64,000 bases of DNA from a virus: the IMG/VR virus record IMGVR_UViG_3300045988_056908, positions 65,792 to 129,791 of that record, one strand, 5' to 3'. Every line of letters begins with the position of its first letter. Position 1 is the stretch's first letter. The notes under the pieces were generated by a model that was given only the letters and a program-made list of their open reading frames with translations, did no database searches and was not told the origin of the DNA. Position numbers and translations under genes: made by a program. Below are positions 12,023 to 42,684 of this stretch, piece by piece.

Positions 12023-12038
12023 AATTCTATTAATTAAA

Positions 12039-14582: not shown

Positions 14583-14924
14583 TTACTTAGAGGAAGGATC
14601 GCCTTGTTTCCTAATCTCTTCGAAAATTCCTAGAAGATTCGTTGGCAAGGTAATCTTTAGTTGAGAGATTCTCTCCTGTTCAGACGTTCTCCAGTTATTA
14701 AACTGACTTCTAAACTCTTGCATTTTAGAATTATATCTCTCATAGTCAGCCTTAAATTCTGCTACTCTATCTTGATATTCCCTTTCTCTAGTCATATCAA
14801 GTTTATTTACAGTCTCTTTAAGTTCTGCCTTCATAGCGTTCAGTTCTTTTTCATAAGAACGATACGTATCTTGAAGAGACATAAACATCGCATCAACATC
14901 CTCTACCTCTGATTTTAATGTCAT
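14583..14924 (-). CDS. coiled-coil protein (start uncertain; overlaps the 3' end of the upstream homing endonuclease gene)
   Basis: 113-aa ORF, heptad-rich. Confidence 0.45.
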   Translation of the reverse strand: MTLKSEVEDVDAMFMSLQDTYRSYEKELNAMKAELKETVNKLDMTREREYQDRVAEFKADYERYNSKMQEFRSQFNNWRTSEQERISQLKITLPTNLLGIFEEIRKQGDPSSK

Positions 14925-15336
14925 GAGCTTTCAATACTTTTCTTACAGTATCATCACTACATCCCACTTTCTCCGCAACTTTTTTGCAAGTATATCCCAT
15001 ATTGTACAGTTCGATTATCTCTTGATAATCATATAACTATGTTCCGTCACCACCCTTAGTAGCATTATAGCCTTTGGAGCCATAAGTTTCCAACTCTTTT
15101 ATCCAATATACCTCTCTTTCTGAAAGTATGTTTTCGTCCTTTACATATTCTAATTCCTCTACTATAAAGTTTTCAACTCCATATTTATTCATAGCATCAT
15201 ATAATGGACGTTTTTCACATCTTTCTTTTCGAGAATCCTTGCAGTGTTCCTAAAATCTTTCCTATATAGTAAAGAGGGTTTTACCAACGTATCTTTTATT
15301 GTTGATAATATTTGTAATGCAATAGATATATCCCAT
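14893..15336 (-). CDS. GIY-YIG homing endonuclease; needs 3 in-frame TAG codons read as sense
   Basis: MGYIYCITNIINNKRYVGKT...(TAG)ERF(TAG)EHCKDS... on the minus strand. GIY...YVG and RFxEH motifs. Ends at TGA. Length 444 nt, in frame. Paralogue of 24237-24812. Confidence 0.75.
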
Positions 15337-15423
15337 ATCATAAACTATTTATAACATTATTAATAATTGATTGAATTAGCTTTACCCAAAACACACCACG
15401 TGGAGGTTTCAATCTTGTGTTTC

Positions 15424-15509
15424 TACCCGAAGTGGGACTCGAACCCACACGCCCATTACTGGGCATCAGAGCTTAAATCTGACGTGTCTACCAATTCCAC
15501 CATTCGGGC
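15424..15509 (-). tRNA. tRNA-Leu(UAA), type II
   Basis: Cloverleaf: acceptor GCCCGAA; anticodon stem TCAGA/TCTGA with loop TTTAAGC; long variable arm; T-arm GTGGGTTCGAGTCCCAC. Confidence 0.85.
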
Positions 15510-15674
15510 ATAGTAATTAGCTATACTCACGTACCGCTAATCAACTTACTATAATAACAGTACAAGTGTTAAATTCAAAGTTAAAAACCGTTAACTTATT
15601 TAAACTGCAAACAAATGTTAATAAATTTATCGACATCAGTTCCGCAATCTACATAATTCGGAGTGATAGCTTCT

Positions 15675-16169
15675 TCAATTTGAGCTTCCATATTTATTAA
15701 GTATATCTAATTCCAATTCCTTAACTTTACTTTCATACAAGGAATCCTCAGCGTAGCCAATTCTGTCTAGGAATTTGTAGTAATCCTCTTCTGGGTTATA
15801 CTTACTAAGGATAAATTGCTTATAAGCGAATACACAGCTTATCCAACTATCGAACTTGAAGTAAGACATTGTTCTGGAATTATACAATCCGAACAGATTG
15901 TTATTGTCCTTACAAAGTTTCGATTTAAAATTGCCAGATTCCAGAACAGCCTGAGCTGTTATAATTGCTGGATTTGGAAAATCGTAATGCTTCAAAGTAT
16001 TGTACAATACTTCTTCGTTTACTTCATCCAATAAGTAGAATGGATGCTCTGGCAGCAATACCATTTCCTCCTGTTTCTGATTGAAATGTATCAGATGATG
16101 CAAAGAATAACCAGTTGCAAATCCGAATACAATACTAATCATAAGGATAATTAAAACTTTCTTTTTCAT
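15675..16169 (-). CDS. peptidoglycan hydrolase, glucosaminidase (GH73/FlgJ-like) domain with N-terminal membrane anchor
   Basis: AQAVLESGNFKS...NNLFGL matches the FlgJ-type glucosaminidase signature. N-terminal TM helix. Confidence 0.7.
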   Translation of the reverse strand: MKKKVLIILMISIVFGFATGYSLHHLIHFNQKQEEMVLLPEHPFYLLDEVNEEVLYNTLKHYDFPNPAIITAQAVLESGNFKSKLCKDNNNLFGLYNSRTMSYFKFDSWISCVFAYKQFILSKYNPEEDYYKFLDRIGYAEDSLYESKVKELELDILNKYGSSN

Positions 16170-16323
16170 AAAACTTCTTCTTCTATTAATCTAATATCCC
16201 AGTAATTTTGAGTTACCGCCCATTCTATAGCGTCTTTCTTCTCTAGAAAAAGAGGAGAGATCTTCTCATAGTTTATAGGGACTTGCCCGTCATATGCCGT
16301 GGGAATTGAAATATAATATACTT

Positions 16324-16626
16324 TCATATCTCAATTGAATTAATAAATCTCGCATCATTAGCTAATTGATATACAGTAGTATTTAGCTCTGGTACATAGA
16401 CTATATAGTAGTAATCAAAGAATTGATTATTATCCTCAAATCCTATGATTACTCCTTTTCGTCCTCCATCTACAATGCAGTCTCTATACATATATTTTGC
16501 AATATCTTGACGGATTCCGTCATGATTTATTACAGCCTGCAATGCAGAAAGTCCGTAGTAAGATGTATTTACACCCCTTATCTCATGTCCAAGCAAATCT
16601 TTATCAAAAGGAGAACTTACTATCAT
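16324..16626 (-). CDS. hypothetical protein
   Basis: 100-aa ORF. Confidence 0.45.
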   Translation of the reverse strand: MIVSSPFDKDLLGHEIRGVNTSYYGLSALQAVINHDGIRQDIAKYMYRDCIVDGGRKGVIIGFEDNNQFFDYYYIVYVPELNTTVYQLANDARFINSIEI

Positions 16627-16946
16627 AACAATACTTTAGTTAGGTCCTCTACAGTTAGATTAGCTATCTTCGATAATTCACAGATTTGGTTTGAGAAATC
16701 TAGCCTTGTTTTAAGTTCTAAATCCCTCCATTGCCGTACCTCCTCTCGACTCTTTCTAAGTTCTTCTTGTAAGTAGGATATAGCCGCCCTTGCTGACTTT
16801 AATTGCTCTGTAGAACAAACGACAAAGTGCTTAGCTCCCTTCTTATTTGTAGAAGGAAGAGCGGCCTCAGCCTCTTCAATACTATCGAACTGTCCTAAGA
16901 TAAAAGGAATATTATTACATTCCTTAATTAAATAGTACTTACTCAT
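16623..16946 (-). CDS. hypothetical protein
   Basis: 107-aa ORF. Confidence 0.45.
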   Translation of the reverse strand: MSKYYLIKECNNIPFILGQFDSIEEAEAALPSTNKKGAKHFVVCSTEQLKSARAAISYLQEELRKSREEVRQWRDLELKTRLDFSNQICELSKIANLTVEDLTKVLL

Positions 16947-17163
16947 CTTTAATTCCTAGATAATCCTTTAATAATTGAATGTTTCCTTCTCTCAAATGCC
17001 GAATAAAAGCCTCCCTTTCTCTCTCAAATAGCAGAATTTTACTCTCTAACAGGTCTATTCGTCTTTGTTGATTTTCCTCGTATTCTTCAATAGCGTCAGA
17101 AATTGCTTTAAGTATAGAAGATTCCTTCATAGCGCTACTCATTGTAGAACTCTTCGTCCCCAT
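16939..17163 (-). CDS. hypothetical protein
   Basis: 74-aa ORF overlapping its neighbours by a few nt (operon-like). Confidence 0.4.
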   Translation of the reverse strand: MGTKSSTMSSAMKESSILKAISDAIEEYEENQQRRIDLLESKILLFEREREAFIRHLREGNIQLLKDYLGIKDE

Positions 17164-17362
17164 TATCGTCGCCTATAGGATTCTCCCATCCGTACTTTAC
17201 AGCAGTAGCCTTAAACAAAGGCAACCCATACATAGCATAATTCTCTTCAGGATAATTCTCTAAGCCCTCTTCTAGAACTTGATTCCACCTTAGTACCACG
17301 TAGAACATTAGGCTAGCTGAAATGCCTCTCTGGTCTAGAGCCTTCTCAAAACCAAACTCCAC
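17135..17362 (-). CDS. hypothetical protein
   Basis: 75-aa ORF. Confidence 0.4.
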   Translation of the reverse strand: MEFGFEKALDQRGISASLMFYVVLRWNQVLEEGLENYPEENYAMYGLPLFKATAVKYGWENPIGDDNGDEEFYNE

Positions 17363-17562
17363 GTCAGACTTAAGTTGCTCTAGGATATTCTCTCTAGTCC
17401 ATTCCTTAGGCTCTGGATAAGGCTCATCACCATCGTACTTGAAGCCTATTTTTCTAACTGCTCTTCTGTTAAAAACTTTGCTAATCTAGAACCGAAACGG
17501 TCATCGAGAACTACGGCATAGTCTTTGTAATTGTCTAAAATCTCATTTAACGTTTTCATTTT

Positions 17563-17883
17563 TTACATATCTTTTAGGTAAATATTTTGAGGATATTCCC
17601 CGAATACTGATAGAGTTACAGCACAAATCCATACCCTGTCATTGTAATTCTTACTTTTGCATAAGTAAGTTGCTCCACATTCATCCTCCTCAATTTTAGA
17701 CAACGTTATCTTAGCTGCAGCTGGGTCAACCATCTGCAATCTAACAAACTTATTATCTAGAGAATCAAGAAGTTCATCTGCACCACCAACCATTGCTAGT
17801 TCCTCTGGTGTTCCGTCATAATCTGGCCACCAATAGAACCAGACTCCTCCAACCTTTATAAACTCAAATGTTTTTCTCATCAA
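17563..17883 (-). CDS. hypothetical protein
   Basis: 106-aa ORF. Confidence 0.45.
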   Translation of the reverse strand: MMRKTFEFIKVGGVWFYWWPDYDGTPEELAMVGGADELLDSLDNKFVRLQMVDPAAAKITLSKIEEDECGATYLCKSKNYNDRVWICAVTLSVFGEYPQNIYLKDM

Positions 17884-17940
17884 TTATTAATTATATTAAA
17901 CAAAAAATACCCCAACAACTTTCGCTGCTGGGGTACATAG

Positions 17941-18012
17941 TAACGCCAACGGGATTCGAACCCGTATGGCAGGCGTGAAAAGCCTAAATCCTAACCATTA
18001 GATGATGGCGCT
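17941..18012 (-). tRNA. tRNA-Glu(UUC)
   Basis: Acceptor AGCGCCA/TGGCGTT; anticodon loop TTTTCAC; T-arm ACGGGTTCGAATCCCGT. Confidence 0.8.
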
Positions 18013-18015
18013 ATC

Positions 18016-18690
18016 CTACTGCACAATCAAGCTATAAGCTTCTTGCAACAGTTTAATAGTTGGAACCATACGGTTATCAACAACTATTATTTTATAAATG
18101 TTCAGAATTTCTTTGTAGGTTAAAGATGTACAAGTTAGAAATATCTGCACATCTTCGTTTACAGAACCATTTGACAATCCCAAATCTACTTTAATCATAC
18201 TGGGTAATGTTCCAATCTGAGAAATATCCCAAGTAGATTTAGTTCTCCTGAAAACTTCCCGCTGTTTGGAAGTAAGTTGCTTTTCTTTCAATCTAGACTC
18301 AATAATAGTACCATCAAACGTTAACGAACCTCCATCGGTATTACTATTATTTAATGCTAGCTGAATCTTCTGAACTGCAGAGTCTTTAGGTTTTGGCTTA
18401 AGTTGCACTCCTTCCTTCAAGCCCTTAATAATCTGCAATGAAGGAATAAAGTCTTTTATTTGAGTTGCATTCCATACAAGAAATTTTCCAGGACTATCCT
18501 TAACAGTAACTATATACTTAGTCCCTCCGTTCAATGGGATAATTACTTGTAAGTCTGCATCACTCATTTTACTTAAATGGTCTGATACTCTAACTTTGAC
18601 GTTTCCAATGACAAAGTAGCGAGAAACAGTTGTTTCCGCTTCGATAATCTCAGTAGCAGTTGCTACTAAATACTTTTCTAATCTAGTCAT
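18016..18690 (-). CDS. hypothetical protein
   Basis: 224-aa ORF. Confidence 0.5.
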   Translation of the reverse strand: MTRLEKYLVATATEIIEAETTVSRYFVIGNVKVRVSDHLSKMSDADLQVIIPLNGGTKYIVTVKDSPGKFLVWNATQIKDFIPSLQIIKGLKEGVQLKPKPKDSAVQKIQLALNNSNTDGGSLTFDGTIIESRLKEKQLTSKQREVFRRTKSTWDISQIGTLPSMIKVDLGLSNGSVNEDVQIFLTCTSLTYKEILNIYKIIVVDNRMVPTIKLLQEAYSLIVQ

Positions 18691-18717
18691 AAAAATTAAT
18701 CTGATTTAATGGTTAAG

Positions 18718-18790
18718 ATCCCCCACTCGGATTCGAACCGAGGTCTCGAGATTACAAATCACGTGTTCTAACCAACTAAACTACAGGGGA
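18718..18790 (-). tRNA. tRNA-Thr(UGU)
   Basis: Anticodon loop TTTGTAA; T-arm CTCGGTTCGAATCCGAG; acceptor has two G-U pairs; one mismatch in the anticodon stem. Confidence 0.65.
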
Positions 18791-18796
18791 ATAAAT

Positions 18797-18834
18797 GCCG
18801 AGACTGGGGGATTCGAACCCCAACCTTCACAGTG
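18797..18834 (-). pseudogene. tRNA 3'-half remnant (T-arm plus acceptor 3' strand only)
   Basis: GGTTGGGGTTCGAATCCCCCAGTCTCGGCA has no matching 5' half. Lies between tRNA-Asp and tRNA-Thr. Confidence 0.45.
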
Positions 18835-18906
18835 CCGAGAGTACCAGACTCGAACTGGTGACCTTCGCATAGACAGTGCACTATTCTACCACTGAACTAA
18901 CCCTCG
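18835..18906 (-). tRNA. tRNA-Asp(GUC)
   Basis: D-arm TAGTTCAGTGGTAGAATA; anticodon loop CTGTCTA; T-arm ACCAGTTCGAGTCTGGT; acceptor CGAGGGT/ACTCTCG. Confidence 0.75.
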
Positions 18907-18917
18907 GTGTAACTGGA

Positions 18918-19469
18918 TTACTCCAGACTAATTAAACCCTTCTCTAACATAATATGGTGATTCGGACATAACCATACTAAATTATTCTCGTTGTTAATCT
19001 CCTTAATAAGAGTGTCTTCGTCAAATCCTAATATTCCTTTAAGATGATGTACTTCAAGTATTGCATCAAATTCATGATTATGACAATATTGACATACTTT
19101 CTCACGTTCGGAACTTTCTAATACTCTACGAGCATTAGTCCTTATTTCTTGACATTTAGATGATAAGTACTTCTGCCCAGATGTATAATAACCTAATGTT
19201 TTGTTACCAATTCCATTAAGTTCTTCCCAGCAACTACGACACATTTCTGAATCTTTATGCTTAGGTTTACCACATCTAGGACATATCTTGTTTTCATCGT
19301 GCTTTATCCTACCTCTATTATTGTAAGAAGCAGCACACGAATGACTACAAAACTGTTTCTTCCTCACATCTGCGACCCTCTGATTATCTAGTACTTCGAT
19401 TACCTTACCACATTCCTTACAGTGGTTAGGATTCTCATAATACAATTTAAGAGATTGTTCTCGATTCAC
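18918..19469 (-). CDS. HNH endonuclease with Zn-ribbon motifs
   Basis: CKECG, CPRCG, and EVHHL...NLVWLCPNHH. No in-frame TAG. Confidence 0.75.
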   Translation of the reverse strand: MNREQSLKLYYENPNHCKECGKVIEVLDNQRVADVRKKQFCSHSCAASYNNRGRIKHDENKICPRCGKPKHKDSEMCRSCWEELNGIGNKTLGYYTSGQKYLSSKCQEIRTNARRVLESSEREKVCQYCHNHEFDAILEVHHLKGILGFDEDTLIKEINNENNLVWLCPNHHIMLEKGLISLE

Positions 19470-19641
19470 AGATAAGTTTAATTAATTTTAATGACAGTGT
19501 GATATGCAAGCCATTACACCACAGCCTCGAAAATGCAGGTATTTATCTCGTTACACCTGCGAGTCCGGCAATCCTTTCTTATATACCGCGTGAGCTGGCG
19601 GTTTTGTAGGGCTAATCAGACTTGAACTGATAACCTCCACA

Positions 19642-20190
19642 TCATAGCGCAATTACTCCTGCGTGAATTTCTCTGTGACACCTACAACAGAGAAGTATAC
19701 ATTTATCTACCTCTTTCTTTAAAAGTTCTATAGGTTTGTGCTACCCAGATAATGAGAAATCTTTCTCGCTTGGGTCGAGGTGATGAAAGTCTAATGCTTC
19801 ATTACATCTATTATAGCCGCATATCTAACACTTTCCACCTTTATACTCGACTAGTTCCTATTTTGTACGCTTTCTATATTCTTTAACGTTGTCGTAGCCA
19901 GTTTTAGGAGTTATCTTTTTGCTTACTATAACGTTTCGAAGTCTATTATAGGATATTCCAGAGAGTCTCGCAACCTCTTTTATGTTACCTATTTCGTCAT
20001 ACATTTTCTAAACTTCTATAATTTTCTCTGGAGTTAGCTCAACTATCTTTTGGCATAATCCAAATTCTTTACAGATATTAGAAACAGAACCTTTTCCAAT
20101 AGACAATTCTTCAGATATTTTATCATAAGAATATCCATTTTCTCTAAGAACTTTTACTTGTTGTTTGATTTGTTCAGAAATTTTCTACAT
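19642..20190 (-). CDS. HTH plus HNH homing endonuclease; needs 5 in-frame TAG codons read as sense
   Basis: Minus-strand reading M(TAG)KISEQIKQQVKVLRENGYSYDKISEELSIGKGSVSNICKEFG...ICGYNRCNEALDFHHLDPSEKDFSLSG(TAG)HKP...CILLCCRCHREIHAGVIAL then TGA. 549 nt, in frame. Confidence 0.7.
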
Positions 20191-20207
20191 ATTATTTACA
20201 GTATTAG

Positions 20208-20279
20208 TTGGGAAGGACAGAGTTGAACTGCCGTCTAGAAATTATCAGTTTCTTGTTCTAACCGTTAAACTACATCCCA
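20208..20279 (-). tRNA. tRNA-Ile(GAU)
   Basis: Anticodon stem AGAAA/TTTCT with loop CTGATAA; D-arm GTTTAACGGTTAGAAC; T-arm GGCAGTTCAACTCTGTC. Confidence 0.75.
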
Positions 20280-20290
20280 ATATTATTGAT

Positions 20291-20320
20291 GTGGTGCTCT
20301 AACCAGTTGAGCTATAGCCC
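20291..20320 (-). pseudogene. tRNA 5'-half remnant (acceptor plus D-arm, no 3' half)
   Basis: GGGCTATAGCTCAACTGGTTAGAGCACCAC, followed directly by the next tRNA. D-arm resembles the tRNA-Met at 29602-29676. Confidence 0.4.
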
Positions 20321-20327
20321 TGTTATG

Positions 20328-20824
20328 TGGACCTAACGGGAGTCGAACCCGTGTCCAAACAACCCTTATTACAAGGATAACGTGCGTCTCATTTTTATTA
20401 CATCAGCTGTTGAGTTCAGCATGTAGATAGTTTTACTAAGAAGCTGAGTGTTAATTCACCAATTACGTCTCCTCGTAAGGCTACGACTTAGTTGTTCACA
20501 AACTACCAAACTGGGCTTGACCGAACGGTCGCTCCACCACTCCATTTACGTTGGAGAACGTCTATTTGTAACCCATAGCTAGGTAGTGGAGATTTCAGCT
20601 TACTAACTCTTAGAGCGTTCGGTTAATGACGTTTGTCAATCCTCTTCTGTTTCTAGGTCTCTCCAGTAACCCGACTTGATTAATAGTGTCTATTAATAAG
20701 CCAGCAGCTTAGGCTGCCATTCTTACAGGTGCAATTTCTGCAGTTATTTGTTTTCGTCGTTTAAAGAGATTGCGCTCTACACGTCCTTATAATTTGTAAT
20801 CGCCTGTCAAATCCAAGTAGGCCC
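20328..20824 (-). ncRNA. ssrA: tmRNA (ssrA-like), about 497 nt
   Basis: 5' end GGGCCTACTTGGATTTGACAGG resembles E. coli tmRNA GGGGCTGATTCTGGATTCGACGGG. 3' end TTTGGACACGGGTTCGACTCCCGTTAGGTCCA resembles TTTCGGACGCGGGTTCAACTCCCGCCAGCTCCACCA. Acceptor pairs GGGCCTA with TAGGTCC, giving a G3:U70 alanine identity pair. Internal A-rich AAAUAACU GCA resume context. Candidate tag AEIAPVRMAA then TAA; alternative AISLNDENK. Confidence 0.7.
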
Positions 20825-20947
20825 ATATAAATAAAATAATTACTAGGTTTGTGTCTTTTTCACTGATTCCGTCACATTGAGGTTGGGGCTACCAACGTGT
20901 GTCCCTGGGCATTACTGTTTTCTTCAGCCAACTATGTAATTATTCTA

Positions 20948-21508
20948 TTAGAGTTTACACTGTTTAAGTATTTCTTTAGTTATTATTCCATCACTAGCAA
21001 GAGAATTTAATTTCTCTAAATCAAACTCACTAGGTTGGAACTTGAATTGAATCCAAGTTGGCTCGCTTGGTCTATAATCTAACCAAGATTCGCAGTCATC
21101 AGTTCCAAGAACTTCTCGTACCATAGCTAAAATGCGTTCTCCAGCAGCTTTAGTTTTTACGAATCCAGATAAATCGTAACCAACACCTCTAGAACGCCAA
21201 TATTCTCCTTCTTCTGGTCTAACGTCTTTAGGCTCCCAATGCCAAGGAGAAATACCTTTTCTAGGATGGTCTATTCTTATAGCTTCTTCCTTTACCCATT
21301 CAGAGTTTGGGTCAGACGGATTCTCTGGATAAGCTCCATACAAACACTTCATAGTAGGATTATCGCTCCTTACTTCAAAATGTATACCACAGTGCCTACA
21401 AGTACCAGAAGTTAAACCTCCTCCAGATACACAACTACCTTTAATGGCATCACAACCACAGTTGGGACAACCCCATTTTAGGTATTCGTCATAAAGTATT
21501 GATAACAT
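20948..21508 (-). CDS. hypothetical protein with N-terminal Zn-ribbon
   Basis: CPNCGC...CRHCG in a 186-aa ORF. Confidence 0.5.
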   Translation of the reverse strand: MLSILYDEYLKWGCPNCGCDAIKGSCVSGGGLTSGTCRHCGIHFEVRSDNPTMKCLYGAYPENPSDPNSEWVKEEAIRIDHPRKGISPWHWEPKDVRPEEGEYWRSRGVGYDLSGFVKTKAAGERILAMVREVLGTDDCESWLDYRPSEPTWIQFKFQPSEFDLEKLNSLASDGIITKEILKQCKL

Positions 21509-21804
21509 TATTTATTGAGTTTAAATTCCACTTCTTTTAGAACAACATACATTTTACCATCCTCTTTCTGTTCAACACAATTATTAGCTTGTAAAAAACT
21601 AATTATAAACTCCATAGGAATATGGTAACTATCAGTAACGAGCATACCACCATCAATATGATAGCGTTCTTTTCTTTCTAATCTAGTGGGATTACCGTTT
21701 ATAGTAATCTCACCAGAATATTCATTATCCTTATCTGGTTTTATCCCTTTTATATAAATAGAACATCCAGAATCAGCTAGATAAACTTGTTGTATTACAC
21801 TCAT
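21508..21804 (-). CDS. hypothetical protein
   Basis: 98-aa ORF. Confidence 0.45.
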   Translation of the reverse strand: MSVIQQVYLADSGCSIYIKGIKPDKDNEYSGEITINGNPTRLERKERYHIDGGMLVTDSYHIPMEFIISFLQANNCVEQKEDGKMYVVLKEVEFKLNK

Positions 21805-22226
21805 AACTTAGGAACATCAGAACGATTATCATGATAACCTTCGTCTCCAACAAGTTGAGCCAGACAACCATGCATATAAGGAACAAGCTCAGGTTTCTCC
21901 TTATAACACCTGTATAGCATCCAACTCATGCTCATAGAGTTTCCACTATGACCATTATCAAAGTAAGGAAGTTTGTCTTTGATAGCCTCAATCAGCTCAA
22001 ATAAGCTAGGATATTTCTCATAGAAGGCTTTACATTCCTCCAGACTCATTTCTTTGAAAAACTCAGAGAATGATAGGGCTTGCTTTATACAAGCCATTTC
22101 ATAACCAAATAGGTCATTTTCTTCAAATGTACCATCACCAGCTTCAACGAACAAACGATTGAAACGTTCGATTCTCTCCTGAAATTCTTTCGGAAGAGAT
22201 TCCTTTGTAAGATTCTTGAAATCCAT
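21801..22226 (-). CDS. hypothetical protein
   Basis: 141-aa ORF. Confidence 0.5.
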   Translation of the reverse strand: MDFKNLTKESLPKEFQERIERFNRLFVEAGDGTFEENDLFGYEMACIKQALSFSEFFKEMSLEECKAFYEKYPSLFELIEAIKDKLPYFDNGHSGNSMSMSWMLYRCYKEKPELVPYMHGCLAQLVGDEGYHDNRSDVPKL

Positions 22227-22258
22227 AATCTAATTTTAATTGTTAAAAATAACTTAGT

Positions 22259-22329
22259 AGCGGGAGTCGGATTCGAACCGACGACCTTCAGGTTATGAGC
22301 CTGACTAGCTACCTCTGCTATCATCCCGC
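22259..22329 (-). tRNA. tRNA-Met/Ile2(CAU)
   Basis: Anticodon stem TCAGG/CCTGA with loop CTCATAA; D-arm TAGCAGAGGTAGCTA; T-arm TCGGTTCGAATCCGA; acceptor has one non-canonical position. Confidence 0.7.
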
Positions 22330-22333
22330 GATA

Positions 22334-22519
22334 TTACAAATGCTTTTTAAATATTTCACAATGATTGTATTCACCTCCCCAACGTATGGGATATTCTTCT
22401 TCCTTGGCTTTCTTATAGCCTTCGGCTTCCTTTTTATCCAGAAATATCTGACACTCAGTTTTATAGTTCTGAGGCGCATTAGCTGGATGATGGTTCACTA
22501 CGACTACGTATACTTTCAT
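22334..22519 (-). CDS. small hypothetical protein
   Basis: 61-aa ORF between two tRNA genes. Confidence 0.4.
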   Translation of the reverse strand: MKVYVVVVNHHPANAPQNYKTECQIFLDKKEAEGYKKAKEEEYPIRWGGEYNHCEIFKKHL

Positions 22520-22537
22520 AATTATTTAATTTTGTTG

Positions 22538-22610
22538 TGGACACGCAGGGACTCGAACCCTATCTTCCGGTGTGCAAAACCAGCGCTCTAGCCATTTGAG
22601 CTAACGGCCC
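22538..22610 (-). tRNA. tRNA-Ala(UGC), with imperfect acceptor stem
   Basis: GGGCCGTTAGCTCAAATGGCTAGAGCG; anticodon stem CTGGT/ACCGG with loop TTTGCAC; T-arm TAGGGTTCGAGTCCCTG. G3:U70 is possible, but only 4 of 7 acceptor pairs form. Confidence 0.55.
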
Positions 22611-22874
22611 ATGTTTGAGATTTTCTTTTTAATTGGTGACATAACTCATAAATTTCCACTGTTAGGATTCCATAACCTAACATCACCAGATAAGTCTTTA
22701 ATTAGTTATATTCTGGATACATAAGTTTGTAACTATATATCTTTTAACGGCAACCATCCGTTTAACAATTCTCAAGTTCAGCTTGCCTATTATAACTACG
22801 CAGGGACTGGCTTCGACTTATTAGCATAAATGCTAACAGACCCCGACTGGATTTTTACCTTGCCAGGTTAGTAT

Positions 22875-23072
22875 TTACTTAATAATTACTTTCTTAGCGC
22901 TTTCTCTAGCTTTAGCTTGCCTAATCTTATAGTCTCTAACTACTTCCTTCATATGGGTATTAAATTCTTTCATGTCCTCCCATGATACAGGATTAGATAG
23001 TTTAGGCTTAGTAAATATGCTATAACTTTCTAGGCTTTTCATTTTCTTCTTTCTGTTTACGAGCCTTCTCAC
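22875..23072 (-). CDS. small basic hypothetical protein
   Basis: 65-aa ORF. Confidence 0.4.
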   Translation of the reverse strand: MRRLVNRKKKMKSLESYSIFTKPKLSNPVSWEDMKEFNTHMKEVVRDYKIRQAKARESAKKVIIK

Positions 23073-23309
23073 ACGCTTTCCGTCTCATTACGTATGGACA
23101 ATCACAGCACCCACTGGCAGGATTATACCAACAACAATAATCACATTGATGCATATCTAACAGCAAATTGTTTATTTCTCTTTGTTAATACTTTAATCGC
23201 TTCCCATATGTCTTTAATATCATTTGGAATTTCACCTTTCTTGTCCATCATATTCCTCTTTCTGCACTCTCTAGACACTTCCCTAAGAACTCGTCTTTTG
23301 ATAGTGGAG

Positions 23310-23675
23310 TTAACCTTCCTTATTTTCATACAAATCTAATTTTTCAAATCTAACAAAATGTCCACCGCCTTGTTGAGGCGGAAGTATCAAGTTTGGGAAG
23401 CGACTACTCCATAGTGCTAATCCAAGAGGAGACGTGCTTGTGAAAAACTCTCCAAGTTCCGATATAGGTTTTTTCAGTTCTCTAAGCTTTTCCGAAATTT
23501 CCTTATACCTTTTACTCTTTTTATTAATCCCACTTCGCTGTGCCTCTAACTCAGCTATATTATCTAATATAGGTTTGACAATAGACTTGTAGTCTTCCTG
23601 AGTTATTAACAGCTTAACTTGACTTATACCATTTGCATAAGTAAGTTTAAACTTTCCAATAGGTTGTACTATCAT
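23310..23675 (-). CDS. hypothetical protein
   Basis: 121-aa ORF. Confidence 0.45.
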   Translation of the reverse strand: MIVQPIGKFKLTYANGISQVKLLITQEDYKSIVKPILDNIAELEAQRSGINKKSKRYKEISEKLRELKKPISELGEFFTSTSPLGLALWSSRFPNLILPPQQGGGHFVRFEKLDLYENKEG

Positions 23676-23835
23676 ATCTAATTAATTAAAAGTTGGTGGA
23701 TGCTAGCCGTTTCTATTCCACCATTGCGTACTACAGTGCTAGCTACCGTCTAGACGACTCTCTTCCTCACATCGGTCTAGAGTTTGCTGGATTACTATTG
23801 CTTAGTTAAAAACTAAGGAGGGTTCAGCAAAAAGG

Positions 23836-23920
23836 CGTATGGTGCAGGATTCGAACCTGCGATGGGATTTCTCACGACGGGTTAACAGCCCGCTGCCGTC
23901 GGCCACTTGGCTAACCATAC
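23836..23920 (-). tRNA. type II (long variable arm) tRNA with anticodon GUU; Tyr-like architecture but reads Asn codons
   Basis: 85 nt. Acceptor GTATGGT/ACCATAC is perfect. Anticodon stem GCGGG/CCCGT with loop CTGTTAA. 16-nt variable region. T-arm GCAGGTTCGAATCCTGC. Confidence 0.6.
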
Positions 23921-24236
23921 ATATTATTTCCTCCCAGACATCTGTAAGTACCCCATTGGTACTTACCTTTTAATGATATTTTTACTCTTGTCCTCTGTAT
24001 GGAGGAGGTATTGTTCCAGACACTAACCAAGTGTAGTTCTTAGAACTCTGTTCAAAATACCATTTAGCAGCTTTCTTTACAACATTAATTACTTTCTTCA
24101 TAACATTAAAGTTTAAAATTGTTAATAATTAATCTAATAACAGAGCCACAAAAGGAGTTTAGTTGCGGAGGTAGGATTATTTCCAAATAAATTTATATGC
24201 AGTTTTCAATTTCCCTTTTACACATAAACTAATCTT

Positions 24237-24812
24237 CTAGCGAACACCTCCATTATAAGTTTTAGCATAGCCATTGTCTACTAACCAGTGTGCAGCATCG
24301 GCTATACTGTTCCAAGTCCTGATAAAGTTATTATTTAAATCATACTGAGATATTGATACAGGTTGCTTGCAACTTCCCAAATAAAATTTGTTCTTTGGTA
24401 TATTGTTTATATTTATTACTTTAGAAACTGTATCAACAGAACATTGCATTTTGGCGGAAACTTCAATCATTGTCATTCCGCTAGTATATAAAGATATTAT
24501 TTCTTTATAATCGAATAAGATAGCTCCATCGCCTCCCATAGTAGCATTATAGCCATTTGAGTATGTGTCTAGCTTATCTATAAATTGAATTTCATAAGAA
24601 GCTAATTCCTCATCATCACATTCATACAGCTACTCAACTATGAAATTCTCAACCCCGTACTTATTCATGGCATCGTACAACGGTCTCTTTTCACATCTTT
24701 CCTTCTTGCAATCATTACAATGTTCTTTAAATCTCTTAGTTACAGAATAAGTAGTTTTTCCAACATACTATTTTCCATTAATTAGATTTGTAATACAATA
24801 AATATATCCCAT
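24237..24812 (-). CDS. GIY-YIG homing endonuclease (paralogue of 14893-15336); needs 2 in-frame TAG codons read as sense
   Basis: MGYIYCITNLINGK(TAG)YVGKTTYSVTKRFKEHCNDCKKERCEKRPLYDAMNKYGVENFIVE(TAG)LYE...GYNATMGGDGAILFDY... continues into listed ORF 24237..24539. 576 nt, in frame. Confidence 0.75.
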
Positions 24813-24895
24813 GTTCTATTCTTATTTAAAATTAAACATATTAGTAAGATTAGCGTTATCCAACTCACACCACGTGGAGGTTCTTACTTGTGAGT

Positions 24896-24975
24896 CTTGC
24901 GGAGGTAGGATTCGAACCGTTTATGACGATTTCTAGGTTATGAGCCTAGCGAGATGACCACTTCTCTACTCCACG
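24896..24975 (-). pseudogene. degenerate tRNA-like element (intact CAU anticodon arm, defective T-stem and acceptor)
   Basis: CGTGGAGTAGAGAAGTGGTCATCTCGCTAGGCTCATAACCTAG...GGTTCGAATCC has no complementary T-stem 5' strand. The acceptor partner is displaced by about 35 nt. Confidence 0.3.
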
Positions 24976-25112
24976 ATATTGGTAGCTACTTTACATCCGC
25001 TACCCAGGGATGCCTCTATCACCAGTGAGGCACGGACTATTCTAACCGTATAGCACGACTGGTTGGTAACGTCTCCAGACACGGCATTTAGACTGAAAAT
25101 GTCGAAACAGTG

Positions 25113-25191: not shown

Positions 25192-25272
25192 TTCCGATTA
25201 AAGAATTTGAACCCCTGACCTCCCACCAATGCCTTATAGTTGTGGGCGCTCTGCCAACTGAGCTAAATCGGA
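25192..25272 (-). tRNA. aberrant 81-nt tRNA-like gene with an expanded (15-nt) anticodon loop containing a CUA triplet
   Basis: Perfect acceptor TCCGATT/AATCGGA. Canonical D-arm TAGCTCAGTTGGCAGAGC. Stem CCCAC/GTGGG enclosing AACTATAAGGCATTG. Weak T-arm AGGGGTTCAAATTCTTT. Confidence 0.4.
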
Positions 25273-25467: not shown

Positions 25468-25809
25468 TTAAGATAGTAATTCCTGCGCCTCAATCTCGCC
25501 GATTATTTTAGTAACCGCAATCTTGAACGGATTTCCCTTAGTTTTGTCAAACAGATGTACATCACGTACCTCGTCAACCTTGTCAGGAACATTCACCTTT
25601 CTTTTCCCTCTTTCTATGGTCTTCCAAGTGATGACTTCGCACCGTTTCACGTCATAAACGCTATCGTTGCGGTCTACATAGACCTTGAAGAAGTTCTTCT
25701 TATGCTTCACAATCTCAACTCTTTTAAAGTTTTTGATGTTAGCATGAAATTTCAAATCGCATTTTCCGTTAGGTAAGAAAATCAATTCTGCCATAATGAT
25801 ACTCCGCAT
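25468..25809 (-). CDS. hypothetical protein
   Basis: 113-aa ORF. Confidence 0.45.
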   Translation of the reverse strand: MRSIIMAELIFLPNGKCDLKFHANIKNFKRVEIVKHKKNFFKVYVDRNDSVYDVKRCEVITWKTIERGKRKVNVPDKVDEVRDVHLFDKTKGNPFKIAVTKIIGEIEAQELLS

Positions 25810-28977: not shown

Positions 28978-28978
28978 A

Positions 28979-37423: not shown

Positions 37424-37684
37424 TTACCTATGATTCTCTCTATAATATACTCTATCACTATTTTTATTTTTAGATTTATAAGTATCCAACTGAGAATCGC
37501 AGTTAGGGCAAATGCATCTTAAATTATCTCTTCTATTGTTTGAAGCTTTTCCGTCTATGTGGTCAACTATAAACACTAATGGCTTTCCATTATGTTCTGG
37601 TTTACAACCACATATTGCACATATACCATCTTGTTCGTTAAGAATATCTTCTCTAAATATTGAAGGAGAGTAGTTGGCTCTCAT
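37424..37684 (-). CDS. HNH endonuclease (small, Zn-finger type)
   Basis: CAICGC...VDHIDG...N...CPNCD. Confidence 0.7.
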   Translation of the reverse strand: MRANYSPSIFREDILNEQDGICAICGCKPEHNGKPLVFIVDHIDGKASNNRRDNLRCICPNCDSQLDTYKSKNKNSDRVYYRENHR

Positions 37685-37834
37685 GATAGACTCGTCTCCC
37701 TCTAAAATTAGCTTATATTTTTGTTTATGTTGATATTCTAACTAGCAGACGTTGTTGCAATATTTATTTCTGTTGGGAATCTCCTTCCCACAATTTAAGC
37801 ACTATTTCATAAAGATTAAAATTAAATATTTAAG

Positions 37835-39671: not shown

Positions 39672-41032
39672 GGTTTTCTTTTTAATTCGTTAAATCTTTT
39701 TCTTGCTAATTTTCCATTCACAAATGTTTCTGTAACTGTTCTGATGCCTTCTATGTGAATGGTATACTCGAAGGCGTGGGTTCCAGTGAGAGTTATCACT
39801 CTTCCCCCATGAATCTGTAAATCTTGCGCGAACAGTTGAATCGCAGTGTAATCTGTTGAATTTTCTCATTTTCTTTTTCTTTTAATCCTGACTACCTATT
39901 TCTAGGTAGTTTCGTCTTAATTTTCAAAGACTCGTCAGAGGATTTTTAAAAATATCCCCACCGCTGTGGGATAAAAAATGAACACTATCAAAAGACCTTC
40001 CTGTGCCACTCTCCTTTGAATTGTTTCACAACAATTACATAGTCTCTGGGCGTACCCATTATAATCTCCAATAATACACAACAATAGTTCCCTACTCTGG
40101 ACTTGAACCAGAATCTTCTCCTTTAGAGAGAGATATACTGACTTGTACTAGTAGGGAAATACTCCACCTGCCTAAGCTCCCTATGGGAGCTGTAGGCTAT
40201 CTAGAATAAGATGGAGAGTTATTTAGATAGTTTCCTACGCTATCTACGTTACCAACGTCCACTAAGAATATAGGTAGCTAATCCATATTCTTGCGACTGA
40301 GTTCGAGGTAGGAAATATACCCTTATGAGGTATCCTCTTATCAGCTAGCCTATCCTTATCGCTCCGCGATAAGGGTTTCTAGCGGCTTATACTAGGCAAC
40401 TTCTAAATAAATAAAATGCATAACTATAAGTGATATGCTTTGGTCGACTGGCATATCAGCAGTACTTCATAATGTTGCTATAAGCGACCAACCCTATAGC
40501 TCAATCCTCTTGTAATAGTGTTTAAGTTTGCGAATATACACATTACAATCGTAGCAGTTATTTTCGGATATTGGGCTATCTGCGTAACCCCGCTTTTTGT
40601 TGCCTTTTTATAGGCTGATGTTAGAGTAAATAATCATTGTAGTATGAGTTATAAAACTCGTCCTACTGGCGATTTTTTGAAAACTGGAAAAAGTCGGAAA
40701 ATTGGGTGTCGGGGTTGTGGACAATTCTTCTCCTTACTCTCCATATTTTCACGTGAAACATACACGATTTTACTAGAAATGATAGTCTTTCCTATCAGCC
40801 AGACATAAAACTAAAACTACTACAAAAGTTAACTCGGTTTTTGATTTTTTTTTGTTTTGTTGTTGATTTCTCCGTTGACCAATGTTCCAATGATGGAGTT
40901 CATATGGGCATTTTATTTTAACTCATAATACCTTAGAGCTGCACGTTTGACTTATTTTAAATCTCGTTGTGCGCTGAGATTGACTCTAAGATTCGGTCAC
41001 ACTCTCACTTATTTATACACGAGAGAGTCGTG
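39672..41032. other. about 1.36 kb of ORF-poor DNA carrying several perfect hairpins (39893-39910, 39953-39972, 40168-40182, 40349-40371) and a T-rich tract (40845-40860)
   Basis: No ORF of 60 aa or more on either strand. Examples: CTACCTATTTCTAGGTAG, CCTTATCGCTCCGCGATAAGG, GCTCCCTATGGGAGC. Confidence 0.4.
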
Positions 41033-42582: not shown

Positions 42583-42654
42583 TGCCCTATGGTGTAATGG
42601 TCAGCACAGATGACTCTAAATCATTTAGTCTGGGTTCGAATCCTAGTAGGGCAA
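42583..42654 (+). tRNA. amber suppressor tRNA, anticodon CUA, derived from tRNA-Gln (predicted to insert Gln at UAG)
   Basis: TGCCCTA TG GTGTAATGGTCAGCAC A GATGA CTCTAAA TCATT TAGT CTGGGTTCGAATCCTAG TAGGGCA A. Anticodon loop CTCTAAA gives CUA. The backbone (TGGTGTAATGGT..., CCTAGTAG...) is closely similar to tRNA-Gln(UUG) at 30390-30461. Confidence 0.8.
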
Positions 42655-42684
42655 CGCCAAAATTAATAGTTATGATAAATTTAA

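What the first reader, a model, noticed from the sequence alone, without database searches (positions are those of the whole stretch)
14893..24812. Homing endonucleases in the early/tRNA block require TAG read-through
Three selfish endonuclease genes on the otherwise standard-code minus strand only form complete proteins with TAG as sense. They are GIY-YIG 14893-15336 (3 TAG), HNH 19642-20190 (5 TAG), and GIY-YIG 24237-24812 (2 TAG). This is why the ORF track shows nothing here. Neighbouring HNH genes (18918-19469, 37424-37684) have no TAG. Because they use the late-phase code, their expression should be coupled to suppressor availability, which would be a built-in timing switch. All sit immediately next to tRNA genes, like T4 segB.
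Basis: partly seen in the sequence, partly recalled or inferred. Interest (0 to 1): 0.7.

Follow-up and report, generated by a model that had tools for sequence, protein, structure and literature searches.

The report
Amber-coded homing endonucleases inside tRNA genes
Selfish DNA-cutting genes lodged inside this gut phage's tRNA genes are written in the phage's "late" genetic code (TAG = glutamine). Two of them begin with a small self-cleaving RNA, so the finding is real, its idea is partly published, and it points to a ribozyme-plus-endonuclease mobile cassette I could not find described.

Summary
The core observation holds. Three ORFs on the minus strand are homing endonuclease genes whose only in-frame stops are TAG.

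- The third ORF's "stop" at 24237 is itself a TAG. The gene runs to 24177 and has 3 TAG.
- The "TAG-free" HNH at 37424-37684 really starts at 37810 and has 2 TAG.
- The first GIY-YIG gene is truncated at its C-terminus.

TAG makes up 50% of Gln+TAG codons in these four genes. The figure is 54% in late genes and 0% in 50 other minus-strand ORFs. TAG aligns with conserved Gln in homologues. Orthologues are under purifying selection (pN/pS 0-0.2). Dozens of related ~185-kb zeta crAss-like genomes lack one or another cassette at the same site.

The genes are mobile cassettes inserted into tRNA genes:
- The GIY-YIG cassettes sit in the T-loop and regenerate the tRNA 3' end. They start with a minimal HDV-like ("theta") ribozyme whose cleavage site abuts the tRNA.
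- The HNH cassette splits tRNA-Ile at the anticodon loop and brings a replacement tRNA-Ile.

The idea of suppressor-gated timing is plausible but untested. It was already proposed for a TGA-recoded intron endonuclease (Borges et al.). I found no report of the ribozyme-endonuclease link.

The parts
15424..15510 (-). tRNA-Leu(UAA). It is the target and upstream partner of GIY-YIG cassette 1.
   Evidence: ARAGORN. Rfam tRNA 56.9 bits, ending at 15424.
15365..15423 (-). Minimal HDV-like (theta-type) self-cleaving ribozyme, copy 1. Its first base follows the last base of tRNA-Leu.
   Evidence: Rfam RF02682 28.7 bits, E = 8e-4, below the gathering score of 44. Own covariance model R1 50.4 bits, E = 6e-8. 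Covariation in P1, P2 and P3.
14893..15336 (-). GIY-YIG homing endonuclease gene 1: 147 aa, 3 in-frame TAG. It is truncated at the C-terminus by a deletion; relatives have 211 aa with 4 TAG.
20290..20320 (-). 5' half of the split tRNA-Ile(GAU), type 1.
   Evidence: Alignment with the intact gene in relatives.
20207..20279 (-). Replacement tRNA-Ile(GAU), type 2, carried by the HNH cassette.
   Evidence: ARAGORN and Rfam, 64.2 bits. It is present only where the cassette or its remnant is present.
19642..20190 (-). HNH homing endonuclease gene 2: 182 aa, 5 in-frame TAG including codon 2.
   Evidence: Colinear with TAG-free homologues across all five TAG positions.
19605..19642 (-). 3' half of the split tRNA-Ile, type 1. 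It starts at the anticodon-stem 3' strand.
24897..24976 (-). tRNA-Met(CAU). It is the target and upstream partner of GIY-YIG cassette 3.
24839..24896 (-). Minimal HDV-like (theta-type) ribozyme, copy 2. Its first base follows the last base of tRNA-Met.
   Evidence: Rfam RF02682 25.2 bits, E = 6e-3, and drz-agam-1 E = 0.08. Model R1 50.2 bits.
24177..24812 (-). GIY-YIG homing endonuclease gene 3: 211 aa, 3 in-frame TAG. Full length.
   Evidence: pN/pS is 0-0.2 among orthologues. Aligns with the I-TevI catalytic domain, E = 3e-4.
24163..24178 (-). 16-nt direct repeat of the tRNA-Met 3' end (AATCCTACCTCCGCAA). It marks the right edge of the cassette.
   Evidence: Exactly two copies in the window, 0 expected by chance. 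Alignment of occupied and empty sites.
37424..37810 (-). HNH homing endonuclease gene 4: 128 aa, 2 in-frame TAG. It starts 23 nt after tRNA-Arg (37834-37907).
18918..19469 (-). TAG-free HNH gene. It serves as the contrast case.
   Evidence: 0 TAG in 17 of 17 relatives.
42583..42655 (+). Suppressor tRNA(CUA), 70% identical to the phage tRNA-Gln(UUG) at 30389-30461.
40087..40157 (-). Second, divergent suppressor tRNA(CUA). It lies on the same strand as the tRNA array and upstream of it.

Best explanation
The window comes from a roughly 185-kb zeta-type crAss-like phage that reads TAG as Gln in its late genes. Its tRNA array carries four functional or recently functional homing endonuclease genes translated with TAG = Gln. 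They are mobile cassettes that home into tRNA genes, in two designs.

Design 1 (both GIY-YIG genes):
- The cassette sits in the T-loop of a tRNA. It carries a copy of the tRNA 3' end, so the tRNA stays intact upstream.
- A 12-16-nt repeat of that tRNA end remains downstream.
- Next comes a 58-nt HDV-like ribozyme whose cleavage site is the tRNA 3' end, and then the endonuclease ORF 30 nt later.
- By inference, the tRNA and the cassette are co-transcribed. The ribozyme then cuts, releasing a correct tRNA 3' end and a separate endonuclease mRNA.

Design 2 (HNH 19642-20190):
- The cassette splits tRNA-Ile in the anticodon loop.
- It brings a different, complete tRNA-Ile 16 nt upstream of its ORF.

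The cassettes have no room for a promoter of their own, so the in-frame TAGs make nuclease synthesis depend on amber suppression by the phage tRNA-Gln(CUA). The first TAG falls at codons 2-25.

Shown:
- ORF integrity.
- TAG = Gln.
- Purifying selection.
- Occupied, empty and decayed sites.
- Target-site repeats.
- The ribozyme fold and its position.

Inferred:
- Self-cleavage.
- Co-transcription.
- Cleavage of empty tRNA sites by the endonucleases.
- Any delay of expression.
For: Code:
- The four genes have 13 TAG, 11 CAA and 2 CAG (TAG share 0.50). Late genes have a share of 0.54 and 50 other minus-strand ORFs (8,624 codons) have 0. Fisher P = 2e-15 against early genes and 0.84 against late genes.
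- TAG replaces the conserved Gln of the QYD motif in five unique GIY-YIG sequences. TAG columns are 3.7-fold enriched for Gln.
- HNH4 codon 23 aligns with the conserved Gln of KCQxEY.
- TAG<->CAG swaps occur between close orthologues.
- The plus-strand suppressor tRNA is 70% identical to tRNA-Gln.

Function:
- 45 unique family members carry 2-6 TAG and no TAA or TGA. Only two copies look decayed.
- pN/pS is 0.0-0.2 at pS up to 0.37.

Mobility:
- The tRNA-Met to tRNA-Asn spacer is 241-243 bp in about 25 genomes and 975-977 bp in four, with a 16-nt repeat.
- At tRNA-Leu(UAA), about 20 sites are empty and lack the ribozyme, and six are occupied.
- The same design occurs at tRNA-Pro and at the tmRNA 3' end.
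- tRNA-Ile occurs in three states: intact in 17 genomes, split in 3, and cassette remnant in 9.

Ribozyme:
- Searches give the evidence.
- 15 of 18 pairs show compensatory changes. 121 cells carry double changes, against 32 +/- 5 in shuffles.
- There are exactly two hits in the window, both in front of GIY-YIG genes.
- In 1.08 Mb of loci not chosen through GIY-YIG, 16 of 19 hits are followed by a GIY-YIG ORF.
Against: - Timing is untested. One suppressor tRNA gene is on the same strand, upstream of the array.
- Several HNH lineages in these arrays are TAG-free.
- A TAG share equal to that of late genes fits relaxed constraint as well as it fits selection for gating. Early placement of the first TAG is only weakly significant (combined P = 0.03).
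- The Rfam scores for the ribozyme are below the gathering threshold.
- The covariation alignment was assembled using a pairing criterion, so it leans towards the structure.
- In a wider sample chosen by the ribozyme motif, only 8 of 32 ribozymes have an endonuclease or remnant downstream. The ones next to suppressor tRNAs have none.
- The three HNH2 copies are identical, so there is no selection test for that gene.
- HEG1 is truncated in this window.
Confidence: 0.75

Rival explanations
1. Neutral drift, not a switch. The endonucleases are under selection only for their own spread and need to act only once replicating DNA and suppressor tRNA are present. TAG therefore accumulates to the mutational equilibrium seen in late genes, without having been selected as a gate.
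For: - The TAG share is 0.50, against 0.54 in late genes.
- TAG positions differ widely among paralogues, across 30 alignment columns.
- TAG-free HNH lineages coexist in the same arrays.
- One relative has a TAG in a non-endonuclease early gene.
Against: - The first TAG tends to lie early, at codons 2, 3, 15 and 25 (P = 0.03).
- T4 endonucleases are actively restricted to late translation (PMC2988022), so there is precedent for selection on timing.
- Whatever the origin of the TAGs, dependence on the suppressor would be the same.
Confidence: 0.4
2. These are decaying pseudogenes. The TAGs are nonsense mutations in dead endonuclease genes.
For: - HEG1 is truncated in the window.
- Decayed copies exist elsewhere: L080 has 4 TAA and 4 TGA, and L228 and L297 are remnants.
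Against: - All 13 in-frame stops are TAG (P about 1e-7).
- There are no frameshifts.
- pN/pS is 0-0.2.
- Intact ORFs are conserved across paralogues that are 45-60% identical.
- TAG falls at conserved Gln positions.
Confidence: 0.03
3. The ribozyme belongs to the tRNA genes, as a general phage device for tRNA 3'-end maturation. On this view the endonuclease genes merely landed downstream of it.
For: - Kienbeck et al. 2024 (PMC10879173) describe theta ribozymes as tRNA 3'-processing elements.
- In the wider sample, 24 of 32 ribozymes have no endonuclease downstream, including all those next to suppressor tRNAs.
- Three loci in relatives have a ribozyme after tRNA-Met without a GIY-YIG gene.
Against: - In this clade the ribozyme is absent from every empty tRNA-Met site (about 25) and every empty tRNA-Leu(UAA) site (about 20). 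It is present in every occupied site.
- It lies inside the segment bounded by the tRNA-end repeats.
- Only the two tRNAs followed by a GIY-YIG gene have it, out of the 27 tRNA genes found by ARAGORN in the window.
- Remnants show that an endonuclease can be lost while the ribozyme stays (L228, L297).
Confidence: 0.15
4. The cassettes were recently imported from fully recoded donor phages. Their TAGs would then be inherited baggage, with no relation to this genome's early/late split.
For: - Homing endonuclease genes move between phages.
- The HNH2 copies are identical in three genomes.
Against: - The family sits in the tRNA arrays of dozens of related genomes.
- Orthologues have diverged to pS 0.3-0.8 while TAG<->CAG/CAA turnover continued in place.
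Confidence: 0.1

Closest known systems
T4 SegB, a free-standing GIY-YIG homing endonuclease in the T4 tRNA gene cluster (PMC2330249)
   Same: - A GIY-YIG enzyme located among phage tRNA genes.
- SegB recognises the T-psi-C stem-loop motif GGTTCRANTCC and cuts a tRNA gene of segB-less relatives. Here the cassette edges lie in the T-loop.
- It drives inheritance of the flanking tRNA alleles.
   Different: - The cassettes here are inserted within the tRNA gene, with a duplicated tRNA 3' end.
- They carry a ribozyme.
- They are written with in-frame TAG.
- Sequence relationship goes only as far as the GIY-YIG domain. The Pfam SegE-type match is below its cut-off.
- Cleavage specificity was not tested.
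TGA-recoded group I intron endonuclease in an early gene of Agate phages (Borges et al., bioRxiv 10.1101/2021.08.26.457843; published 2022)
   Same: - A homing endonuclease embedded in the standard-code early region carries in-frame reassigned stops.
- The authors state that this should prevent its production until late.
   Different: - That case uses TGA = Trp; this one uses TAG = Gln.
- That endonuclease is intron-encoded inside a protein gene; these are free-standing cassettes in tRNA genes.
- That is a single gene family; here there are at least six recoded lineages.
- That case involves no ribozyme other than the intron.
Theta ribozymes, minimal HDV-like ribozymes 3' of phage tRNAs (Kienbeck et al. 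2024, PMC10879173)
   Same: - The same fold and size.
- The cleavage site lies within 1-3 nt of a tRNA 3' end.
- They occur in gut Caudoviricetes of Bacteroidota and are enriched in code-15 phages.
- tRNA-Met and tRNA-Leu are among the commonest partners.
   Different: - The paper does not mention endonucleases, homing or GIY-YIG. It interprets the ribozymes as tRNA-processing and code-switch devices.
- Here the ribozyme is the 5' module of a mobile endonuclease cassette, and it is absent from empty sites.
R2 retrotransposons with a 5' HDV-like ribozyme (own knowledge: Eickbush & Eickbush 2010; Ruminski et al. 2011). I did not read PMC11331408; the search listing only shows that it uses the term 'HDV-like' 27 times.
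   Same: A mobile element is inserted in a structural RNA gene and co-transcribed with it. An HDV-like ribozyme at the 5' junction frees its own mRNA.
   Different: - R2 is a eukaryotic retrotransposon in 28S rDNA that destroys its target copy.
- Here a DNA-level homing cassette in a phage tRNA gene leaves the tRNA intact.
Late translational gating of T4 I-TevI, I-TevII, I-TevIII and segB, and of Aeh1 mobE (PMC2988022)
   Same: The endonuclease genes ride on early or middle transcripts but are translated only late.
   Different: - T4 uses hairpins that sequester the ribosome-binding site, together with late promoters.
- Here the proposed gate is the genetic code.

Membership tests
GIY-YIG homing endonucleases | GIY-YIG catalytic domain scoring above the curated threshold | tested here: met
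   PF01541 scores 45.5 bits (14893-15336) and 40.7 bits (24177-24812), against a cut-off of 22.6. The matches span the TAG positions. The domain aligns with the I-TevI catalytic domain 1mk0, E = 3e-4.
GIY-YIG homing endonucleases | C-terminal DNA-binding module joined by a linker | tested here: inconclusive
   - HTH_28 scores 27.8 bits in gene 1, above its cut-off of 25.
- NUMOD1 scores 20.7 bits in gene 3, below its cut-off of 22.8.
- Gene 1 in the window has lost the last 64 residues.
HNH homing endonucleases | HNH (beta-beta-alpha-Me) motif scoring above the curated threshold | tested here: inconclusive
   - HNH4: HNH_3 scores 27.0 bits against a cut-off of 24.8, so it is met.
- HNH2: Pfam HNH scores 16.6 bits against a cut-off of 21.4, so it is not met. 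However, phrog_2255 gives 5e-25, and the CxxC...HH...CxxCH motif is colinear with homologues.
Homing (mobile) endonuclease genes | Presence/absence polymorphism at the same site in close relatives | tested here: met
   Empty and occupied sites exist at tRNA-Met, tRNA-Leu(UAA), tRNA-Ile and tmRNA.
Homing (mobile) endonuclease genes | The enzyme cleaves the empty allele, and the occupied allele is immune | not testable with these tools
   This needs purified protein and empty-site DNA.
Genetic code 15 (TAG = Gln) phages | TAG aligns with Gln in homologues, and a tRNA(CUA) of Gln type is encoded | tested here: met
   The tRNA(CUA) at 42583-42655 is 70% identical to tRNA-Gln(UUG).
HDV-like / theta ribozymes | Match to a curated HDV-like family above the gathering score | tested here: not met
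   RF02682 scores 28.7 and 25.2 bits, against a gathering score of 44 (E = 8e-4 and 6e-3). P4 is reduced to about one nucleotide, as in minimal variants. Rfam listed no theta family.
HDV-like / theta ribozymes | Nested double-pseudoknot helices P1, P2 and P3 supported by covariation | tested here: met
   - 99.7% of cells are paired.
- 15 of 18 pairs show changes on both sides.
- 0 of 500 shuffles reach the observed score, and slid controls give 33-48% paired.
- Caveat: the alignment was built with a pairing criterion.
- P1.1 was not tested.
HDV-like / theta ribozymes | Conserved cytosine in J4/2, and G1 forming a G.U pair at the cleavage site | tested here: met
   - There is an invariant C in the ...GCUAA segment, aligned to the RF02682 consensus.
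- The first pair is G-U in 12 of 21 sequences and C-G or G-C in 7.
HDV-like / theta ribozymes | Cleavage site within a few nucleotides of a tRNA 3' end | tested here: met
   The offset is -1 or 0 in 38 of the 40 cases that have a called tRNA or tmRNA.
HDV-like / theta ribozymes | Self-scission | not testable with these tools
   This needs in-vitro transcription.
Group I intron with a homing endonuclease in a tRNA gene | Group I ribozyme core flanking the ORF | tested here: not met
   No Intron_gpI match appears at the gathering score or at E <= 1 in 19400-20900. Fewer than 30 nt remain unassigned in the 690-bp insert.

The most novel reading that the evidence does not exclude
A substantial share of the theta ribozymes found next to phage tRNAs would be the 5' modules, or the surviving relics, of endonuclease cassettes that home into tRNA T-loops. 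The composite of ribozyme and amber-coded GIY-YIG gene would then be the tRNA-gene counterpart of a group I intron with its endonuclease. The ribozyme keeps the invaded tRNA functional, and the altered code keeps the nuclease silent until the phage has switched codes. On this reading the link went unnoticed because standard-code annotation breaks the endonuclease ORFs.
Probability: 0.3. Interest if true: 0.8.

Novelty: new variant of a known kind. Interest (0 to 1): 0.65.

Why it matters
- It gives a clean natural case in which the genes inside a standard-code block that use the reassigned codon are mobile endonucleases. This makes the "code as a timing gate" hypothesis testable on small, non-essential genes.
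- It shows that homing cassettes shape phage tRNA arrays. They replace tRNA alleles and leave split or duplicated tRNA pieces behind.
- It suggests a concrete role for at least some theta ribozymes: insulating an invaded tRNA from the selfish gene placed in it.
- In practice, standard-code annotation hides these genes. tRNA-array "non-coding" gaps in recoded phages should therefore be re-read with code 15.

Tried and rejected
- **Group I intron in tRNA-Ile.** Rejected. There is no Rfam hit and no room for a ribozyme core.
- **Other TAG-dependent genes in the minus-strand block.**
  - The candidates 25468-26079, 12854-13369, 6376-7194, 15675-16223 and 28516-29100 are upstream extensions of standard ORFs.
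  - 17308-17559 is a frameshifted copy of a 150-aa gene.
  - Across 45 loci of 20 kb, the only conserved TAG-dependent ORF not in my endonuclease query set was another HNH gene.
- **The 150-200-bp "insertions" of the window relative to MT836666.** They are unique coding sequence, not repeats. That unverified scaffold appears to lack them, so I relied on IMG/VR contigs instead.
- **Selection test on HNH2.** Not possible, because the three copies are identical.
- **Duplicated tRNA ends after HNH4, HNH2 and the tRNA-Cys-linked GIY-YIG gene.** None found.
- **A ribozyme at the suppressor tRNAs or at any other tRNA of the window.** None found with the filters off.
- **MAFFT alignment of the ribozymes.** It put the helices out of register. 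I replaced it with a structure-guided, N-padded alignment.
- **A universal ribozyme-endonuclease link.** Not supported. Only 8 of 32 ribozymes in a motif-chosen sample have an endonuclease or remnant downstream.

Full report
**What the window is**

The window has 35% G+C. From 1 to about 41,700 the genes run on the minus strand and form long ORFs in the standard code. They include a helicase, a nicotinamide phosphoribosyltransferase and 25 tRNA genes. From about 46,400 onward, plus-strand genes can only be read with TAG as sense. The large terminase has 15 in-frame TAG and the portal protein has 32. Two tRNA(CUA) genes lie between the blocks.

The terminase is 26-29% identical to those of crAss-like phages and 42-45% identical to two human-gut scaffolds. 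Close relatives in IMG/VR are contigs of 180-190 kb. This matches the amber-suppressing zeta crAss-like phages tabulated in PMC12386605.

**Checking the observation**

All three ORFs exist as described, and every in-frame stop is TAG. Profile searches on the TAG->Gln products give GIY-YIG domains well above Pfam's cut-off. They also give strong PHROG homing-endonuclease and HNH matches, and these run across the TAG positions.

Three corrections are needed:
- The stop of the third ORF (24237) is another TAG. The gene ends at 24177 and includes the family's conserved C-terminus.
- The HNH gene at 37424-37684 was called TAG-free. It begins at 37810 with a treble-clef zinc finger that holds two TAG codons, and this N-terminus is conserved in more than 50 homologues.
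- 14893-15336 is a truncated copy. Relatives encode 211 aa with a fourth TAG. In the window, a deletion of about 1 kb fused the remnant to the tail of the next gene.

HNH 18918-19469 is truly TAG-free.

**Is TAG really decoded, and as what?**

Codon use:
- In the four genes TAG accounts for 13 of 26 Gln+TAG codons.
- In twelve late genes it accounts for 137 of 255.
- In 50 other minus-strand ORFs (8,624 codons) it accounts for 0 of 248.
- Fisher's test gives P = 2e-15 against early genes and 0.84 against late genes.
- If the stops were random, 13 of 13 being TAG has P about 1e-7.

Conservation:
- IMG/VR holds many relatives of the GIY-YIG genes. Forty-five unique full-length sequences carry mostly 2-6 TAG and no TAA or TGA. 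Only two copies look decayed.
- TAG columns are 3.7-fold enriched for Gln. The conserved Gln of the QYD motif is TAG in five unique sequences.
- HNH4 codon 23 aligns with the conserved Gln of KCQxEY.
- Close orthologues show TAG<->CAG exchanges.

Selection and suppressor:
- Orthologues of gene 3 have pN/pS of 0.0-0.2 at pS up to 0.37. Orthologues of gene 1 have 0.1-0.26.
- The plus-strand tRNA(CUA) is 70% identical to the phage tRNA-Gln(UUG). The minus-strand tRNA(CUA) is divergent.

The pseudogene reading is therefore excluded. These genes are translated with TAG = Gln.

**How general is the pattern?**

I examined 45 loci of about 20 kb spanning the tRNA array of related genomes. These loci were fetched through a neighbouring non-endonuclease gene.
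- 806 non-endonuclease ORFs of at least 80 aa (138,458 codons) are TAG-free.
- All 29 GIY-YIG ORFs contain TAG, and so do several HNH lineages.
- The 18918-type HNH (17 of 17 copies) and two other HNH lineages are TAG-free.

TAG use thus marks most of the endonuclease lineages, but not all of them.

**The genes are cassettes inserted in tRNA genes**

Every endonuclease ORF starts 16-90 nt downstream of a same-strand tRNA, both here and in relatives.

tRNA-Ile site (HNH2):
- 17 relatives have an intact tRNA-Ile(GAU).
- In the window and two other genomes this gene is split at the anticodon loop by about 690 bp. The insert consists of a different, complete tRNA-Ile(GAU) and HNH2.
- Nine genomes keep the new tRNA-Ile, the first 17 codons of HNH2 and a stub of the old gene.
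- These three states correspond to the empty, occupied and decayed stages of a homing cycle.
- The insert is not a group I intron.

tRNA-Met site (gene 3):
- The spacer to tRNA-Asn is 241-243 bp in about 25 genomes and 975-977 bp in four.
- The roughly 733-bp insert is bounded by a 16-nt repeat of the tRNA-Met 3' end, which begins in the T-loop.

Other sites:
- The full-length gene 1 cassette at tRNA-Leu(UAA) has the same design, with a 12-nt repeat.
- So do two cassettes at tRNA-Pro, and one at the 3' end of the phage tmRNA gene in relatives.
- About 20 genomes have the empty tRNA-Leu site, which continues exactly as the sequence after the repeat does.

T4 SegB recognises the T-psi-C motif and cuts a tRNA gene (PMC2330249). 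These enzymes plausibly do the same, but I could not test it.

**A ribozyme at the head of the GIY-YIG cassettes**

The 76-89-nt leaders between the tRNA and the GIY-YIG start share a conserved core, ACCUCCACGUGG...GGGUAACGCUAA. Two interleaved helices flank this core, and their sequences differ from copy to copy.

Rfam evidence:
- Rfam aligns both window copies end to end with the F. prausnitzii HDV-like ribozyme, RF02682.
- The scores are 28.7 and 25.2 bits (E = 8e-4 and 6e-3), below the gathering score of 44.
- The first ribozyme base is the one after the tRNA. P4 is reduced to a nucleotide or so.

Covariation:
- I used 21 unique sequences.
- 15 of 18 pairs in P1, P2 and P3 show compensatory changes.
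- 121 cells carry double changes, against 32 +/- 5 in shuffles. Slid partners pair in only 33-48% of cells.
- The alignment was assembled with a pairing criterion. However, every leader that was first picked by position alone and that contains the core satisfied that criterion.

Searches with a covariance model:
- The model finds exactly two copies in the window, at 15365-15423 and 24839-24896. Both are in front of GIY-YIG genes, and none is at any other tRNA.
- In 1.08 Mb of loci not chosen through GIY-YIG, 16 of 19 hits are followed within 13-32 nt by a GIY-YIG ORF or its remnant.
- The ribozyme is missing from all empty sites.

The ribozyme corresponds to the "theta" ribozymes of Kienbeck et al. 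2024. Those authors place them at tRNA 3' ends, mostly of tRNA-Met, tRNA-Sup and tRNA-Leu. They do not mention endonucleases. A full-text search found no paper that links HDV-like ribozymes with homing endonucleases.

The link is not universal. In a sample of IMG/VR loci chosen by the ribozyme core alone, 32 passed the model. Only 8 of these have a GIY-YIG gene, an HNH-like gene or a remnant downstream. Those next to suppressor tRNAs have none. The GIY-YIG cassette linked to tRNA-Cys (19-nt spacer, 6 TAG) has no ribozyme and instead brings a whole tRNA, as HNH2 does.

**Mechanism: shown and inferred**

Shown:
- The cassette anatomy.
- Mobility at population level.
- Decoding of TAG as Gln.
- Purifying selection.
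- The fold and position of the ribozyme.

Inferred:
- The cassettes are transcribed with the tRNA array, since only 16-90 nt separate each tRNA from the following ORF.
- The ribozyme cuts at the tRNA 3' end. This would give a tRNA ready for CCA addition and a separate endonuclease mRNA.
- The endonucleases cut empty tRNA alleles of co-infecting relatives.
- The in-frame TAGs keep the nuclease from being made until the suppressor is active.

Borges et al. stated it for a TGA-recoded intron endonuclease. It is functionally parallel to the late translational gating of T4 endonucleases.

Against it as an adaptation:
- One suppressor gene shares the strand of the array.
- TAG-free HNH genes coexist in the same arrays.
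- The TAG share equals that of late genes.
- The early position of the first TAG is only weakly significant (P = 0.03).

**Verdict**

What appears to be new is the composite element: a theta-type ribozyme plus an amber-coded GIY-YIG gene, inserted in the T-loop of tRNA and tmRNA genes so that the tRNA is regenerated. A second design replaces the tRNA outright.

Noticed in passing
window 20325-20824 (-): A phage-encoded tmRNA, missed by ARAGORN. Rfam gives 76 bits against the full-length model, and the tag reading frame ends ...MAA-stop. It lies directly upstream of the split tRNA-Ile. In relatives L185, L195 and L222 its 3' end is itself the target of a ribozyme + GIY-YIG cassette.
   Followed up: partly
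window 40213-40404 (-): RAGATH-14 RNA (Rfam 154 bits, gathering score 149.1), immediately upstream of the minus-strand suppressor tRNA(CUA) at 40087-40157. Function unknown.
   Followed up: no
window 40087-40157 (-) and 42583-42655 (+): Two suppressor tRNA(CUA) genes on opposite strands flank the divergent intergenic region. The plus-strand one is 70% identical to tRNA-Gln(UUG). The minus-strand one is only 39-47% identical to any tRNA I compared it with.
   Followed up: partly
window 23834-23920 (-): A tRNA with the Asn anticodon GUU is 87 nt long and has a long variable arm (type II shape). Many close relatives have an ordinary 73-nt tRNA-Asn at the same position, so two very different alleles occupy one locus.
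   Followed up: partly
window 17135-17559 (-): A gene that is a single 150-aa ORF in relatives (for example L001 22804-23256) is frameshifted here into two pieces. This is either a pseudogene or an assembly error.
   Followed up: partly
window 18016-18690 (-) and 27622-28242 (-): These are the only two of 50 minus-strand ORFs that end in TAG. The first has a back-up TAA six codons later, overlapping tRNA-Glu. The second, an AAA-ATPase N-terminal part, overlaps the next ORF (26831-27571) and may be a frameshifted or split gene.
   Followed up: no
window 42044-42445 (+): A 133-aa ORF with 3 in-frame TAG and no family match. It lies upstream of the plus-strand suppressor tRNA and ahead of a run of TAG-free plus-strand ORFs (42685-46425).
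   Followed up: no
window 25192-25272 (-) and 22538-22610 (-): Two additional tRNA-like genes found by Rfam (45.1 and 39.5 bits) but not by ARAGORN. In relative L002 the first of these and tRNA-Cys are replaced by a block made up of a 100-aa ORF, an 86-nt tRNA-Cys and a GIY-YIG gene with 6 TAG.
   Followed up: partly
L200 16262-16318, L214 15451-15507, L216 15899-15955; also L268 and L249: In a neighbouring phage clade a weaker ribozyme copy (33.9 bits) follows tRNA-Met without a GIY-YIG gene. In L268 and L249 a 158-160-aa ORF beginning MEYNK...ERGYTI... follows instead. I suspect it is another endonuclease type but did not run a family search on it.
   Followed up: partly
L195 9708-10001: One relative has a TAG at codon 6 of a non-endonuclease early gene (the homologue of window 21508-21804), at a position where the window has Gln. 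This is a rare leak of TAG into the standard-code block.
   Followed up: no
L001 (MT836666.1) versus window 7249-7448, 7648-7831, 9133-9327, 12030-12202, 12984-13131: This unverified GenBank scaffold lacks five unique 150-200-bp stretches that lie inside intact coding sequence in the window, including the NAMPT gene. The cause is probably assembly gaps rather than biology.
   Followed up: partly
L262, L245, L259, L285, L299: Ribozyme copies directly after suppressor tRNA(CUA) genes in other IMG/VR phages. In four of the five a TAG-free 93-103-aa ORF (MIAAIYELNGK...) follows, with no endonuclease similarity. The fifth locus (L259) is too short downstream to tell.
   Followed up: no
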